Shown here piece after piece: positions 1 to 5,118 of a stretch of 64,000 bases of DNA. Position numbers: made by a program. The stretch is from Escherichia coli (GTDB taxonomy: Bacteria > Pseudomonadota > Gammaproteobacteria > Enterobacterales > Enterobacteriaceae), in assembly GCF_022846255.1 (NCBI RefSeq), contig NZ_AP025682.1; one strand, written 5' to 3'. Each line of letters opens with the position of its first letter. Position 1 is the stretch's first letter.

Positions 1-3000
1 GTTTTGTATTGCGCGATGATATAATAGTAAACAGAGTTGCGTGCCCTACAAAATTGGTTGAATATTTAGAGTGTGGTGTCGTTCCAGTTGTGCTCTCCCC
101 ACTTATAGGTGATTTTTATTCGATGGGATATCAATACATTACTACAGAGGAAATGGCTAACAGAAGTATAAGTTTGTTGGATCTTGAAAAAATGGCTGCA
201 CATAATTTACAAATTTTGACTTCTTATCAGAAGAGAACCTACAAGGCACAGAAAGAACTTATTGCTCAACTGTGCTGAATTTTTTACATATATAAAATTA
301 TGTAAGCATATCGCTGGTCAGGTAATTGTATGCGTATCAAATATAAAGATAACGGTTATATATTATGTTTTCTATTATGTTTCATTTTGAGCTACTTAGT
401 TTTACTCAAATCTGACTACTTTCCTGCTGATTTTCTGCCATATACAGAAATATACGATGGGACATACGGAGAAATCAATAATATTGAGCCTGCCTTTTTA
501 TATTTAACACGGTTGTTTCATTATTTAAATTTCCCCTATATATTTTTTGCAATGTTAGTTTGTGCCTTATGTTTAAGTTGGAAAATAAAATATGCAAGAA
601 AAATAATTAAAGATAGTTATATATATTTATTCTTGTATGTATATGTATCATTTTATGTGTTTTTGCATGAAATGACTCAATTGCGCATAGCAATTGCAGT
701 CACTATGTGCTATGTGTCGGTTTATTATTACTTTTATAAAAATTGTATTAAACATGCACTGCCATGGATGGTGTTGGCTATTTTGTTTCATTACAGCGCC
801 TTGCTTTTATTTATGTCATTATTTATATACAGTTATAGGAGGTTATTAATAGTAATTATAGGGTTTGTAATATGTATGAGCTTTTTAAACGTGTATGCAG
901 ATACAATTGCACTATATTTGCCAAATGAAAAAATAGTAAATTATTTATATAGTATTTCATCATCATTAGACAATAGAAATGATTTGGCAATATTCAACCT
1001 GAATAATATAATATTTTTATCAATATTTATTTTGATCTTTTATCTTAGCCGATATATAAAATTAAATGATAATGAGGCGAAGTTTATTAAGTATGTGCAA
1101 TGTTCAGGAATATTAGCCTTTTGTATTTTCTTTCTGGCTAGTGGAGTCCCGGTCATTGCTTATCGAACTGCAGAGTTGCTGCGAATATTTTATCCGATGG
1201 CTTTAGTATTAATCCTTTCGCATATAAAAAATAATAATATGCGTTATTTTATTGCAGTCATTATAGTTATCCTTTCAGGCTTAATGTTGTTTATAACACT
1301 AAGGGCTGTATCAATAGTTGGTCAAGGATTATAAAATGAATGTTGCTATTTTGTTGTCTACGTATAATGGCGAAAAATATTTAGAGGAACAACTGGATTC
1401 ATTGCTGCTTCAAAGTTATCAGGATTTTGTAGTGTATATCCGTGATGACGGATCATCTGATAGAACTGTAAATATAATAAACCAATACGTAATGAAAGAT
1501 AACAGATTTATTAACGTGGGTAATTCAGAAAATCTTGGTTGTGCTGCTTCGTTTATTAATTTATTAAGAAATGCTTCAGCCGATATTTATATGTTTTGTG
1601 ACCAAGATGATTATTGGCTTCCGAATAAATTACAGCGTGCTGTGGATTATTTTTCGGCTATTGATCCTTTACAACCTACCTTGTATCATTGCGATCTAAG
1701 CGTTGTTGATGAAAAACTTAATATTATACAAAATTCATTTTTGCAGCATCAGAAAATGTCAGCGTATGATTCAATGAGAAAAAATAATCTTTTCATACAA
1801 AATTTTGTTGTTGGTTGTTCATGTGCTGTTAATGCTTCACTTGCGGAATTTGTTCTTTCGCGAATTGGAGAGCAGCATGTAAAAATGATAGCTATGCATG
1901 ACTGGTGGTTAGCCGTGACTGCAAAACTTTTTGGTCGAATCCATTTTGATAATACTCAAACGATTCTTTATCGACAACATCAGGGCAATGTATTAGGTGC
2001 AAAATCATCAGGTATGATGCGTTTTATTCGATTAGGATTAAATGGGCAAGGGATTTCGCGAGTAGTATCTTTTAGAAAAAAAGTTTGTGCGCAAAATAAG
2101 CTTCTTTTAGATGTCTATGATAAAGAGTTAAATCTTGAGCAAAAAAAATCTATCAGGCTTGTAATTGAGGGCCTTAAAGAGAACTCTTCAATTGCTGACC
2201 TTTTAAAATGTTTCTATCATGGTAGCTATATGCAAGGTTTTAAACGTAATCTTGCCTTAATATATTCAGTTCTTTACACAAAAAAAAGAAGATAGTGTAT
2301 CCTTATGAAAAAAATTGCTATTATCGGTACTGTTGGCATACCAGCATCATATGGCGGATTTGAAACATTAGTTGAAAATTTAACAAGATACAATTCCTCG
2401 GGAGTTGAATATAATGTTTTTTGTTCATCGTTTCACTACAAATCCCACCAAAAAAAACATAATGGGGCCCGTTTAATTTATATTCCGCTTAAAGCCAATG
2501 GATGGCAGAGCATTGCGTATGACATAATTTCGTTAGCATATTCTATTTTTTTGAAGCCTGATGTGATTCTGATTTTAGGGGTTTCTGGTTGTTCATTTTT
2601 GCCTTTCTTCAAACTCTTAACACGCGCTAAGTTTATTACTAATATTGATGGCTTGGAATGGCGAAGAGATAAATGGAATTCAAAAGTGAAACGTTTCTTA
2701 AAATTTTCAGAAAAAATCGCAGTTCAATATTCGGATGTCGTTATTACGGATAATGAGGCAATTTCTGAGTACGTTTTTAACGAGTATAATAAAGATAGCC
2801 GAGTTATTGCCTATGGAGGGGATCATGCATGGTTAAATACTGAGGATGTATTTACAACAAGAAATTATAAAAGCGATTACTACCTTTCTGTATGTCGTAT
2901 CGAACCCGAAAACAATGTAGAATTAATTTTAAAAACATTTTCAAAGCTAAAATATAAAATAAAATTTATTGGAAATTGGAATGGCAGCGAGTTTGGAAAG

Positions 3001-5118
3001 AAACTTAGGCTGCATTATTCTAACTATCCAAATATTGAAATGATTGATCCGATTTATGATCTTCAACAATTATTTCACTTACGAAATAATTGCATAGGAT
3101 ATATACATGGTCATTCGGCTGGAGGAACAAACCCTTCTTTAGTCGAGGCAATGCATTTTAGTAAACCTATATTTGCATATGATTGTAAGTTTAATAGGTA
3201 CACTACTGAAAATGAAGCATGTTATTTTTCTAATGAATCTGACCTCGCAGAGAAAATCATAATGCATTGTGAGCTATCATTAGGTGTCTCTGGCACGAAA
3301 ATGAAAGAAATTGCTAACCAGAAATACACTTGGAGACGAATAGCAGAAATGTATGAGGATTGCTATTAACTCTGTTAAACTTCAAATCTTTTACAATATA
3401 TGGCATGACTATAAGCGCATTAATTGTTTTTCAAGCCGCTCTCGCGGTGACCACCCCCTGACAGGAGTAAACAATGTCAAAGCAACAGATCGGCGTCGTC
3501 GGTATGGCAGTGATGGGGCGCAACCTTGCGCTCAACATCGAAAGCCGTGGTTATACCGTCTCTATTTTCAACCGTTCCCGTGAAAAGACGGAAGAAGTGA
3601 TTGCCGAAAATCCAGGCAAGAAACTGGTTCCTTACTATACGGTGAAAGAGTTTGTTGAATCTCTGGAAACGCCTCGTCGCATCCTGTTAATGGTGAAAGC
3701 AGGTGCAGGCACGGATGCTGCTATTGATTCCCTCAAACCATATCTCGATAAAGGTGACATCATCATTGATGGTGGCAATACCTTCTTCCAGGACACCATT
3801 CGTCGTAACCGTGAACTTTCTGCCGAAGGCTTTAACTTCATTGGTACCGGTGTCTCCGGTGGTGAAGAAGGCGCGCTGAAAGGTCCTTCTATTATGCCTG
3901 GTGGGCAGAAAGAAGCCTATGAACTGGTTGCACCAATCCTGACCAAAATCGCCGCAGTAGCTGAAGACGGGGAGCCATGCGTTACCTATATTGGTGCCGA
4001 TGGCGCAGGCCATTATGTGAAGATGGTTCACAACGGTATTGAATACGGCGATATGCAGCTGATTGCTGAAGCCTATTCTCTGCTTAAAGGTGGCTTGAAC
4101 CTTTCCAACGAAGAACTGGCGCAGACCTTTACCGAGTGGAATAACGGTGAACTGAGCAGCTACCTGATTGACATCACTAAAGACATCTTCACTAAAAAAG
4201 ATGAAGACGGTAACTACCTGGTTGATGTGATTCTGGATGAAGCGGCTAACAAAGGTACCGGTAAATGGACCAGCCAGAGCGCGCTGGATCTCGGTGAACC
4301 GCTGTCGCTGATTACCGAGTCTGTGTTTGCACGTTATATCTCTTCTCTGAAAGATCAGCGTGTTGCCGCATCTAAAGTTCTCTCTGGCCCGCAAGCGCAG
4401 CCAGCAGGCGATAAAGATGAGTTCATCGAAAAAGTTCGCCGTGCACTGTATCTGGGCAAAATCGTTTCTTACGCTCAGGGCTTCTCTCAACTGCGTGCGG
4501 CGTCTGAAGAGTACAACTGGGATCTGGACTACGGCGAAATCGCGAAGATTTTCCGTGCTGGCTGCATCATCCGTGCGCAGTTCCTGCAGAAAATCACCGA
4601 TGCTTATGCCGAAAATCCGCAGATCGCTAACCTGCTGCTGGCTCCGTACTTCAAGCAAATCGCCGATGACTACCAGCAGGCGCTGCGCGATGTCGTCGCT
4701 TACGCGGTACAGAACGGTATCCCGGTTCCGACCTTCGCCGCTGCGGTTGCCTATTATGACAGCTACCGCGCCGCTGTTCTGCCTGCGAACCTGATCCAGG
4801 CACAGCGTGACTATTTCGGTGCGCATACTTATAAGCGCATTGATAAAGAAGGTGTGTTCCATACCGAATGGCTGGATTAATCTGATTTAATCAACAATAA
4901 AATTGAGGCCCGGCGTATATTATGCCGGGTTTTTTTTACCAATTATCTTATAGACTAAATTTCACTGCTTAATATTAACTTAATAAATATCAGCTATTCT
5001 TATAAAGAAATTCTGAATTGTTTTTCGTTGCGTTGACCATCTTACAACGTAGCGTTAAAACTTTTAACTCTTATCAGGATGCTAAAAACATCATGATTCA
5101 CAGTTAAGTTAATTCTGA

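What the first reader, a model, noticed from the sequence alone, without database searches (positions are those of the whole stretch)
1..3369. Low-GC O-antigen cluster tail with wzy and two glycosyltransferases
The first 3.4 kb is markedly AT-rich compared with gnd and the his genes, as is typical for horizontally exchanged O-antigen loci. The Wzy-like polymerase and GT2/GT4 enzymes determine serotype, and the specific combination could identify the O-type.
Basis: partly seen in the sequence, partly recalled or inferred. Interest (0 to 1): 0.3.

Follow-up and report, generated by a model that had tools for sequence, protein, structure and literature searches.

The report
E. coli O1A O-antigen cluster tail
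The AT-rich first 3.4 kb of the window is the well-known 3' end of the Escherichia coli serogroup O1 (O1A) O-antigen gene cluster (wekM end, wzy, wekN, wekO), so it is a correct but ordinary observation.

Summary
Bases 1-3369 have 31.8% GC against 49.5% for the rest of the window, and no other 3369-base stretch falls below 40.2%. The stretch holds four same-strand genes that end 104 bp before gnd.

- It is 100% identical over all 3369 bp to many E. coli chromosomes, including an O1:H42 strain.
- It is 99.9% identical to the O1:K1:H7 type strain ATCC 11775.
- All three published O1A-specific wzy qPCR oligonucleotides match exactly inside the 330-1334 ORF.

The hydrophobic ORF is a Wzy polymerase of the EpsG family, not Wzx. 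The Wzx flippase is a separate gene upstream in identical clusters.

The two glycosyltransferases are WekN (GT2) and WekO (DUF1972 plus GT1 domains, related to pneumococcal beta-1,4-rhamnosyltransferase Cps2T). WekM is a divergent GT-B enzyme, and in 6 of 6 distant relatives it sits directly after a UDP-GlcNAc 2-epimerase gene, which suggests it transfers ManNAc.

Verdict: already known, low interest.

The parts
1..278 (+). 3' end of wekM (last 91 codons of 354; in frame from base 3): third glycosyltransferase of the O1A cluster, with a GT-B fold
   Evidence: Identical to L001:13001-13278, the end of CDS WP_000924430.1. The name wekM comes from PMC11237799. WekM itself has no Pfam or NCBIfam hit. 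Of 44 aligned homologues, 20 hit Glyco_transf_4 and 9 hit Glycos_transf_1. An AF2 model built on that alignment has pLDDT 94.4, and its best PDB matches are GT-B enzymes.
279..329 (.). 51-bp AT-rich spacer between wekM and wzy
330..1334 (+). wzy (O1A): O-antigen polymerase, 334 aa, EpsG family, multi-pass membrane protein
   Evidence: PF14897 EpsG, 107.2 bits (cut-off 30.1), covering residues 11-325. PGAP names it 'O1 family O-antigen polymerase' WP_001220928.1, the same protein as in type strain ATCC 11775. The wzyO1A primers and probe match exactly at 1117-1143, 1145-1171 and 1182-1206. It has at least 8 strongly hydrophobic segments and is 25% identical (E 7e-10) to O2/O50 Wzy.
1336..2295 (+). 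wekN: GT2-family (GT-A, inverting) glycosyltransferase, 319 aa
   Evidence: PF00535, 86.7 bits. A D89-Q-D91 motif is present. The ATG at 1336 is the PGAP start. It has a single difference from the type strain, E264 against D264, which is exactly the published WekN E264D polymorphism and fixes the numbering and the start. The mechanical ORF start at TTG 1318 is probably not used.
2305..3369 (+). wekO: DUF1972 plus Glycos_transf_1 (GT4-type GT-B) glycosyltransferase, 354 aa; probable beta-1,4-L-rhamnosyltransferase acting on Und-PP-GlcNAc
   Evidence: PF09314, 118 bits, and PF00534, 34.7 bits. NCBIfam NF046071 'beta 1-4 rhamnosyltransferase Cps2T' gives 229.6 bits and E 5e-68 over the full length, but this is below the equivalog cut-off of 500. 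It is 54% identical to the last transferase of the O2/O50 cluster. The protein WP_000716853.1 is identical in the type strain.
3370..3473 (.). wekO-gnd spacer. The junction between O1A-specific DNA and DNA common to E. coli lies at about 3426-3459
3474..4880 (+). gnd (6-phosphogluconate dehydrogenase): conserved right-hand flank of the O-antigen locus, not part of the cluster
6440..7420 (+). wzzB: O-antigen chain-length regulator, a functional partner of Wzy. Context only
   Evidence: PGAP annotation in the identical stretch of CLSC36. The ORF listing gives an earlier ATG at 6404.

Best explanation
Bases 1-3369 are the gnd-proximal third of the Escherichia coli O1A O-antigen gene cluster. The full cluster is rmlBDAC-wzx-mnaA-wekM-wzy-wekN-wekO, and the window begins inside wekM.

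[quoted passage not shown] WecA, encoded elsewhere, puts GlcNAc-1-P on undecaprenyl phosphate. The cluster's three glycosyltransferases build the pentasaccharide unit (three L-Rha, GlcNAc and a ManNAc side branch) on the cytoplasmic face. Wzx, which lies upstream and outside the window, flips the unit. Wzy (330-1334) polymerises units in the periplasm. WzzB (6440-7420) sets chain length, and WaaL ligates the polymer to lipid A-core.

What is shown: the identity of the locus and of each gene family.

What is inferred, with decreasing confidence:
- WekO, a retaining GT4-type enzyme related to Cps2T/WchF, adds the beta-L-Rha to GlcNAc (about 0.75).
- WekM, always paired with the UDP-GlcNAc 2-epimerase gene, adds the ManNAc branch (about 0.55).
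- WekN, an inverting GT2, makes both alpha-Rha-Rha linkages, since there are three transferase genes for four linkages (about 0.45).

The low GC reflects the foreign, horizontally exchanged origin typical of O-antigen loci.
For: Identity of the locus:
- It is 100% identical over 3369 bp to more than 30 E. coli chromosomes. A match is present in 101 of 5426 complete genomes, with wzy annotated 'O1 family O-antigen polymerase'.
- The full context in O1:H42 strain CLSC36 is galF-rfbBDAC-wzx-wecB-GT-wzy-GT2-DUF1972-gnd-ugd-wzzB-his. The window matches this locus over 16,369 bp with one mismatch.
- It is 99.9% identical to the O1:K1:H7 type strain ATCC 11775 (U5/41), with identical Wzy and WekO proteins.
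- The O1A-specific wzy qPCR primers and probe from PMC5293828 all match exactly.

Gene families and names:
- Gene names come from PMC11237799.
- WekN E264 against D264 reproduces the published polymorphism.

Sugar structure:
- The composition is 3 Rha + GlcNAc + ManNAc (PMC5293828). The repeat-unit mass of 844.81 Da fits this.
- One Rha is beta-L. GlcNAc is the initial sugar, and ManNAc is a side branch on the outermost Rha (PMC10304059).

Transferase assignments:
- WekO gives 229.6 bits to the Cps2T beta-1,4-rhamnosyltransferase model. It is 54% identical to the O2/O50 terminal transferase.
- WekM homologues lie directly downstream of a PF02350 epimerase gene in 6 of 6 distant taxa.
- The same 'three GT genes for four linkages, one GT adds two Rha' reasoning was published for the analogous Acinetobacter PSgc10 cluster (PMC3726653).

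Composition: GC and GC3 contrast.
Against: - The window holds only the last third of the cluster. wzx, mnaA, rmlBDAC and most of wekM are not visible, so the serotype call rests on wzy, wekN and wekO plus identity to genomes that carry the full cluster.
- In CLSC36 the cluster's wecB/mnaA is frameshifted, and other strains carry IS1 deletions. Presence of this tail therefore does not prove O1 expression.
- None of the transferase specificities has been tested biochemically.
- WekO scores below the Cps2T equivalog cut-off.
- WekM's nearest structural neighbours are retaining GT-B enzymes. Any role left for it in O1A (beta-ManNAc or alpha-L-Rha) needs inversion, so its assignment is uncertain.
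- The exact linkage positions are from my own recall of the primary structural papers (Baumann 1991; Jann 1992; Gupta 1992), which I could not read here.
Confidence: 0.96

Rival explanations
1. The hydrophobic ORF at 330-1334 is the Wzx flippase or another transporter, not the polymerase.
For: It is a very hydrophobic multi-pass membrane protein, which is equally true of Wzx proteins.
Against: The only Pfam hit is EpsG (the Wzy type), at 107 bits over the full length. There is no Polysacc_synt or MATE-type hit. At 334 aa it is short for a Wzx. In identical clusters a separate 408-aa gene upstream carries PF01943 Polysacc_synt at 141.9 bits and is named 'O1 family O-antigen flippase'. The published wzy O1A assay oligonucleotides lie inside this ORF. 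It is homologous to O2/O50 Wzy.
Confidence: 0.01
2. The tail belongs to a mosaic or degraded cluster. The unseen 5' half would then be from another serogroup, or be disrupted by an IS element or a frameshift, so the strain is not phenotypically O1A.
For: Mosaic O1-related clusters exist, such as strain A47 (PMC5293828). IS1-mediated deletion derivatives of this very cluster occur in complete genomes. CLSC36 has a frameshifted wecB/mnaA. About 15% of genotypic O1 blood isolates did not react with O1a antiserum.
Against: 92 of 102 matching records cover at least 80% of the stretch. CLSC36, whose upstream half was inspected, has the standard O1A gene order. The partial matches inspected are deletions that remove part of this stretch, which the window does not show. 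The window's flanks, 1-16369, are 99.99% identical to CLSC36.
Confidence: 0.05
3. The low GC is only a by-product of membrane-protein amino-acid composition or of chance, not a sign of foreign origin.
For: wzy, the most hydrophobic gene, is also the most AT-rich at 28.2% GC.
Against: The two soluble transferases are also 33% GC, and GC at third codon positions is 0.24-0.27 against 0.53 in gnd. No other 3369-bp stretch of the window goes below 40.2%. Only 101 of 5426 E. coli genomes carry this DNA, whereas the adjacent gnd is in 5289.
Confidence: 0.02

Closest known systems
E. coli O1A O-antigen gene cluster (reference strain G1632 = U5/41 = ATCC 11775; GenBank GU299791 as cited in PMC5293828)
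   Same: Gene order is wekM-wzy-wekN-wekO followed by gnd. DNA identity is 99.9% over 3369 bp. Wzy, WekO and the visible WekM end are identical proteins. The wzyO1A assay sites match exactly.
   Different: The only amino-acid difference in the visible genes is WekN E264 here against D264 in the type strain, a published conservative polymorphism. The 5' two thirds of the cluster lie outside the window.
E. coli O2/O50 O-antigen gene cluster
   Same: It has the same tail architecture, wzy (EpsG type) - GT2 - DUF1972 transferase. The terminal transferase is 54% identical and Wzy is distantly homologous at 25%. Both antigens are L-Rha-rich with GlcNAc.
   Different: The GT2 and the upstream GT show no significant similarity. 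O2 uses Fuc3NAc-pathway genes instead of mnaA. It also has ISAs1 and a sulfatase/LTA-synthase-family gene between the last transferase and gnd.
Streptococcus pneumoniae Cps2T/WchF beta-1,4-rhamnosyltransferase (NCBIfam NF046071)
   Same: WekO aligns over its full length at E 5e-68 and has the same DUF1972 plus GT1 architecture. The O1A unit contains a beta-L-Rha next to the initiating sugar.
   Different: The score of 229.6 is below the 500-bit equivalog cut-off. The acceptor would be Und-PP-GlcNAc rather than Und-PP-Glc. There is no biochemical test.
E. coli 'O1 non-A' variant clusters (strains CB11070, CB13533, CB14293; PMC5293828)
   Same: [quoted passage not shown]
   Different: Those are only 41-55% identical to the O1A reference and do not react in the wzyO1A assay. 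The window is O1A, not this variant.
Acinetobacter baumannii PSgc10-type capsule cluster and other wzx-mnaA-wekM-like-wzy(EpsG)-GT2 modules
   Same: The order is conserved: flippase, UDP-GlcNAc 2-epimerase, WekM homologue, EpsG-type polymerase, GT2. The sugars are Rha plus ManNAc, with three GT genes for four linkages.
   Different: WekM identity is only 32-45%. The hosts and flanking genes differ, and these are capsule rather than O-antigen loci. That L012 is PSgc10 itself was not checked.

Membership tests
E. coli O1A O-antigen gene cluster (genotype O1/Og1) | Serogroup-specific wzy sequence | tested here: met
   The three wzyO1A oligonucleotides match exactly. The Wzy protein is identical to that of the O1 type strain. 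PGAP names it 'O1 family O-antigen polymerase'.
E. coli O1A O-antigen gene cluster (genotype O1/Og1) | Gene order ...wekM-wzy-wekN-wekO immediately upstream of gnd | tested here: met
E. coli O1A O-antigen gene cluster (genotype O1/Og1) | Serogroup-specific wzx, plus rmlBDAC and mnaA, between galF and wekM | not testable with these tools
   These genes lie upstream of the window start. They are present in genomes that are 100% identical over the visible part.
E. coli O1A O-antigen gene cluster (genotype O1/Og1) | Strain agglutinates with O1 antiserum and makes the O1a polysaccharide | not testable with these tools
   This needs serology or NMR. About 15% of genotypic O1 isolates did not cross-react.
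Wzy O-antigen polymerase, EpsG family (PF14897) | Profile score above the Pfam gathering threshold over most of the model | tested here: met
   107.2 bits against a cut-off of 30.1, profile positions 2-313 of 326.
Wzy O-antigen polymerase, EpsG family (PF14897) | Polytopic inner-membrane protein | tested here: met
   Kyte-Doolittle analysis finds at least 8 distinct strongly hydrophobic 19-residue segments. This is a crude method, and topology was not modelled.
Wzy O-antigen polymerase, EpsG family (PF14897) | Polymerase activity (loss gives semi-rough, single-unit LPS) | not testable with these tools
   Needs a wzy mutant and an LPS gel.
Wzx flippase (Polysacc_synt, PF01943) | Profile match for the ORF at 330-1334 | tested here: not met
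   There is no hit at E <= 0.01. The real wzx upstream scores 141.9 bits.
Glycosyltransferase family 2 (PF00535), for WekN | Profile score above threshold, and a DXD-type motif | tested here: met
   86.7 bits against a cut-off of 23.3. D89-Q-D91 is present.
DUF1972/GT4-type transferase, for WekO | N-terminal DUF1972 and C-terminal Glycos_transf_1 domains above threshold | tested here: met
   PF09314 118.1 bits (cut-off 25) and PF00534 34.7 bits (cut-off 26.4).
Cps2T beta-1,4-rhamnosyltransferase equivalog (NF046071), for WekO | Score at or above the curated equivalog cut-off | tested here: not met
   229.6 bits against a cut-off of 500. WekO is a homologue, not an equivalog. A similar reaction is inferred, not shown.
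Glycosyltransferase family 2, for WekM (as named by PGAP) | GT-A fold or a PF00535 match | tested here: not met
   No PF00535 hit. Homologues hit GT4-type domains. The AF2 model (pLDDT 94.4) matches GT-B enzymes such as glycogen synthase, OtsA, BshA, MshA and WaaG.

The most novel reading that the evidence does not exclude
WekM, whose 3' end is at 1-278, would represent an unrecognised GT-B subfamily with no Pfam or NCBIfam model of its own. Its members would be dedicated ManNAc transferases genetically locked to a UDP-GlcNAc 2-epimerase gene across Proteobacteria and Bacteroidota. They would have to act with inversion despite looking most like retaining GT4-clan enzymes. WekN would then be a bifunctional alpha-1,3-rhamnosyltransferase. 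None of this changes the identity of the locus.
Probability: 0.35. Interest if true: 0.3.

Novelty: already known. Interest (0 to 1): 0.08.

Why it matters
It fixes the serogroup genotype of the source genome as O1 (O1A). This is a clinically common extra-intestinal pathogenic E. coli O type and a vaccine target (PMC11237799). That is useful for annotating the window but adds nothing new to biology. The only mildly open points are the untested specificities of the three transferases and the likely mislabelling of WekM as 'family 2' in public annotation.

Tried and rejected
- Single-sequence AlphaFold of WekM gave pLDDT 38 and was unusable. It was replaced by a 44-sequence alignment model.
- Sequence searches of the PDB found nothing for Wzy or for WekM, either alone or as a profile.
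- An Rfam scan of 1-8000 found only a sub-threshold L20_leader hit at 4840-4942 (24 bits against 58.7), taken as chance.
- Promoter-like and terminator-like sites in 1-5200 are no more frequent than in shuffles (23 against 20.4±4.4; 4 against 3.4±1.6). No internal regulatory element is therefore claimed.
- The supplementary tables of the E. coli O-antigen review, which might give transferase assignments, are not held. Gupta et al. 1992 is not held either.
- The published WekO L166V polymorphism could not be placed. With the PGAP start, residue 166 is Arg and residue 167 is Val. The paper may number WekO differently, and this is unresolved.
- Script-based collinearity with CLSC36 beyond 16,369 could not be run because the locus file L004 was not available to the script. 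I used database searches instead.
- The TTG 1318 start for wekN was considered and rejected in favour of ATG 1336.
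Full report
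**1. Observation**

The first 3369 bases carry four ORFs on the + strand. These are a fragment ending at 278, then ORFs at 330-1334, 1318/1336-2295 and 2305-3369. They are followed by gnd (3474-4880), ugd (5128-6294) and wzzB, and then by the his operon on the opposite strand.

GC content of 1-3369 is 0.318 against 0.4945 for the rest of the window. Among 1146 equally long windows elsewhere, the minimum is 0.402. Third-position GC is 0.24-0.32 in the four ORFs against 0.53 in gnd. The AT-richness is therefore a property of the DNA and not just of hydrophobic residues. The profile steps up between about 3000 and 3750.

A search with 3150-3750 shows where the common E. coli backbone begins. It starts at about window 3426-3459, just before the gnd start codon, and is present in 5289 of 5426 genomes. 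Only 100 genomes extend leftwards into the AT-rich DNA.

**2. What it is**

Megablast of 1-3369 against 5426 complete E. coli genomes finds the stretch in 101 genomes, nearly all at 99% identity or more. Many are 100% identical over the whole length. The genes are annotated 'glycosyl transferase family 2 | wzy: O1 family O-antigen polymerase | glycosyltransferase family 2 protein | DUF1972 domain-containing protein'.

In O1:H42 strain CLSC36 the full locus reads galF, rfbBDAC, wzx ('O1 family O-antigen flippase'), wecB, GT, wzy, GT2, DUF1972, gnd, ugd, wzzB, his. The window matches this locus over 16,369 bases with one mismatch.

The E. coli type strain ATCC 11775 (U5/41, O1:K1:H7) is the O1 reference. 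It is 99.9% identical, with the same Wzy and WekO protein accessions.

Delannoy et al. 2017 (PMC5293828) designed a wzyO1A qPCR assay that reacts only with O1A-type strains among all O-group references. Its forward primer, probe and reverse-primer sequence occur exactly, once each, at 1117-1143, 1145-1171 and 1182-1206, inside the 330-1334 ORF. The answer is O1, genotype O1A.

The literature names the genes wekM, wzy, wekN and wekO, and the operon runs 'rmlB through wekO' (PMC11237799).

**3. The genes**

- **wzy (330-1334).** Pfam EpsG (PF14897) scores 107 bits over essentially the whole 334-aa protein, and nothing else hits. The protein has at least eight strongly hydrophobic segments. It is distantly homologous to the O2/O50 polymerase (25% identity, E 7e-10).

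That condition is not met. The true wzx of the identical cluster is a separate 408-aa gene upstream with a Polysacc_synt domain (141.9 bits).

- **wekN (1336-2295).** This is a GT2 enzyme (PF00535, 86.7 bits) with a DQD motif at residues 89-91. The ORF lister starts it at TTG 1318, but PGAP uses ATG 1336.

  With that start, the single amino-acid difference from the type strain falls at residue 264: E in the window, D in ATCC 11775. This is precisely the published WekN E264D polymorphism, which supports ATG 1336.

- **wekO (2305-3369).** It has DUF1972 (118 bits) plus Glycos_transf_1 (34.7 bits). It aligns over its full length with the NCBIfam model for the pneumococcal beta-1,4-rhamnosyltransferase Cps2T (229.6 bits, E 5e-68), although this is under the 500-bit equivalog cut-off.

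  Related DUF1972 genes close the O2/O50 clusters. The O2/O50 protein is 54% identical.

- **wekM (..278).** Bases 3-278 encode the last 91 residues of a 354-aa protein.

  The protein itself has no Pfam or NCBIfam match, and public annotation calls it 'family 2'. A database search found 508 homologues. Of 44 aligned representatives, 20 hit Glyco_transf_4, 17 hit Glyco_trans_4_4 and 9 hit Glycos_transf_1.

  An AlphaFold model built on that alignment is confident (pLDDT 94.4). Its best PDB matches are GT-B enzymes such as glycogen synthase, GlgM, OtsA, BshA, MshA and WaaG. WekM is therefore a divergent GT-B transferase, not a GT2.

**4. How it most likely works**

O1 is made by the Wzx/Wzy pathway, with Wzz setting chain length (PMC10304059). 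What the papers I could read say about the O1a unit:

- It has three L-Rha, one GlcNAc and one ManNAc (PMC5293828). Its mass of 844.81 Da equals 3 deoxyhexoses plus 2 HexNAc.
- GlcNAc is the initiating sugar, and ManNAc is a side branch on the outermost Rha.
- One Rha is beta-L.

The exact linkage positions are from my own recall of the primary papers, which are not held here. I recall the backbone as ->3)-a-L-Rha-(1->3)-a-L-Rha-(1->3)-b-L-Rha-(1->4)-b-D-GlcNAc-(1->, with b-D-ManNAc-(1->2) as the branch.

The following points rest on established glycosyltransferase chemistry and on inference.

- The donor dTDP-beta-L-Rha gives beta-L-Rha by retention and alpha-L-Rha by inversion. UDP-alpha-D-ManNAc gives beta-ManNAc by inversion.
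- WekO belongs to the retaining GT4 type and resembles Cps2T/WchF, so it is the natural candidate for the beta-L-Rha-1,4-GlcNAc step.
- For WekM the evidence is genomic context. I looked up six distant homologues (32-45% identity) from Rahnella, Aeromonas, Comamonas, Acinetobacter, Pedobacter and a Neisseria-like metagenome. In all six the gene lies immediately downstream of a PF02350 UDP-GlcNAc 2-epimerase gene, as it does in O1A. In four of the six it is followed by an EpsG-type polymerase. This conserved pair points to ManNAc transfer.
- That leaves WekN (GT2, inverting) to make both alpha-Rha-Rha bonds, because there are four linkages but only three transferase genes. The same argument was published for an Acinetobacter cluster with Rha, ManNAc and mnaA (PMC3726653).
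- One caveat applies. WekM's structural neighbours are retaining enzymes, whereas any role left for it requires inversion. Fold-level similarity at 10-12% identity does not settle stereochemistry.

**5. Comparison with what is known, and novelty**

The locus is the published O1A cluster, sequence-identical to many deposited genomes. It is not the 'O1 non-A' variant, which is only 41-55% identical. It shares its tail architecture and its terminal transferase with O2/O50, but not the other transferases. Nothing here is new. The finding is a correct, routine annotation.

**6. Other checks**

No Rfam family reaches threshold in 1-8000. Promoter-like and terminator-like sites do not exceed shuffled controls. 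The genes are tightly packed, with gaps of 51, 1 and 9 bp, as expected for one operon transcribed from upstream of rmlB, outside the window.

Partial database matches are IS1-mediated deletions of this same cluster. This shows that carrying the tail does not by itself guarantee O1 expression. The window's own upstream part cannot be seen.

**7. Verdict**

The serogroup is resolved as O1 (O1A). The finding is already known, and interest is about 0.08.

The most novel reading still open concerns WekM as an unmodelled, epimerase-linked ManNAc transferase family. I give it a probability of about 0.35 and modest interest.

Noticed in passing
window 1-278; full gene at L001:12214-13278: WekM is labelled 'glycosyl transferase family 2' in RefSeq. 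It has no Pfam or NCBIfam hit, its homologues hit GT4-type domains, and a confident AF2 model has a GT-B fold. In 6 of 6 distant homologues the gene directly follows a UDP-GlcNAc 2-epimerase (PF02350) gene, which suggests a ManNAc transferase family without its own profile model.
   Followed up: partly
L002:8244-9528 (NZ_CM192843.1); L003:5288-6137 (NZ_AP024687.1); also hits H64, H65, H95: Several complete E. coli genomes carry IS1-mediated deletions of the O1A cluster. They keep only rfbBD(A), IS1 and either the second half of wekN plus wekO, or just the last 92-137 bp of wekO before gnd. These are presumably rough derivatives of O1 lineages.
   Followed up: partly
L001:11074-12199 (CLSC36, upstream of the window): The cluster's own wecB/mnaA (UDP-GlcNAc 2-epimerase) is annotated as frameshifted in O1:H42 strain CLSC36. 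The housekeeping wecB of the ECA locus might compensate. I did not check whether the window's genome shares the frameshift or how common it is among O1A strains.
   Followed up: no
hit H61, NZ_CP087289.1 (5269 bp record): A 5.3-kb record labelled as a plasmid of APEC 16-1068 holds wzy-wekN-wekO at 99.6% identity. It is most likely a chromosomal assembly fragment rather than a plasmid-borne O-antigen cluster.
   Followed up: no
L005:8259-11095 and L006:7990-12118 (O2/O50 clusters): In O2/O50 strains an ISAs1 element and a sulfatase/LTA-synthase-family gene sit between the terminal DUF1972 transferase and gnd. In one strain that gene is split in two, and the O2:K2:H1 strain has a frameshifted wzy.
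   Followed up: no
window 4881-5127: The gnd-ugd intergenic region is only 30% GC, a second AT-rich patch next to the O-antigen locus.
   Followed up: no
window 6404-7420: The mechanical ORF for wzzB starts at ATG 6404 (338 aa), whereas PGAP annotates the start at 6440 (326 aa). Likewise wekN has TTG 1318 against the annotated ATG 1336.
   Followed up: partly
window about 25000-64000 (by analogy with L004, NZ_CP041300.1 1974000-2012800): Downstream of the his operon and yeeZ-sbcB-dacD-sbmC-yeeA, related genomes carry a CP4-44-like island. It holds cbtA/cbeA, yeeS/T/W, an antirestriction gene, dynamin-family and GTPase genes and a patatin-like phospholipase. A mosaic follows, with IS150, ISL3, IS66, IS256 and IS4 remnants and metabolic genes. 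The window has low-GC patches (0.38-0.40) at about 49.7-58.5 kb. The best matches for 16370-64000 are other O1-cluster strains at 99.8-100% identity. Exact collinearity with CLSC36 was not verified.
   Followed up: no
window 4840-4942: There is a weak Rfam L20_leader match (24 bits against a gathering score of 58.7, E 0.28) spanning the end of gnd. I regard it as chance.
   Followed up: no
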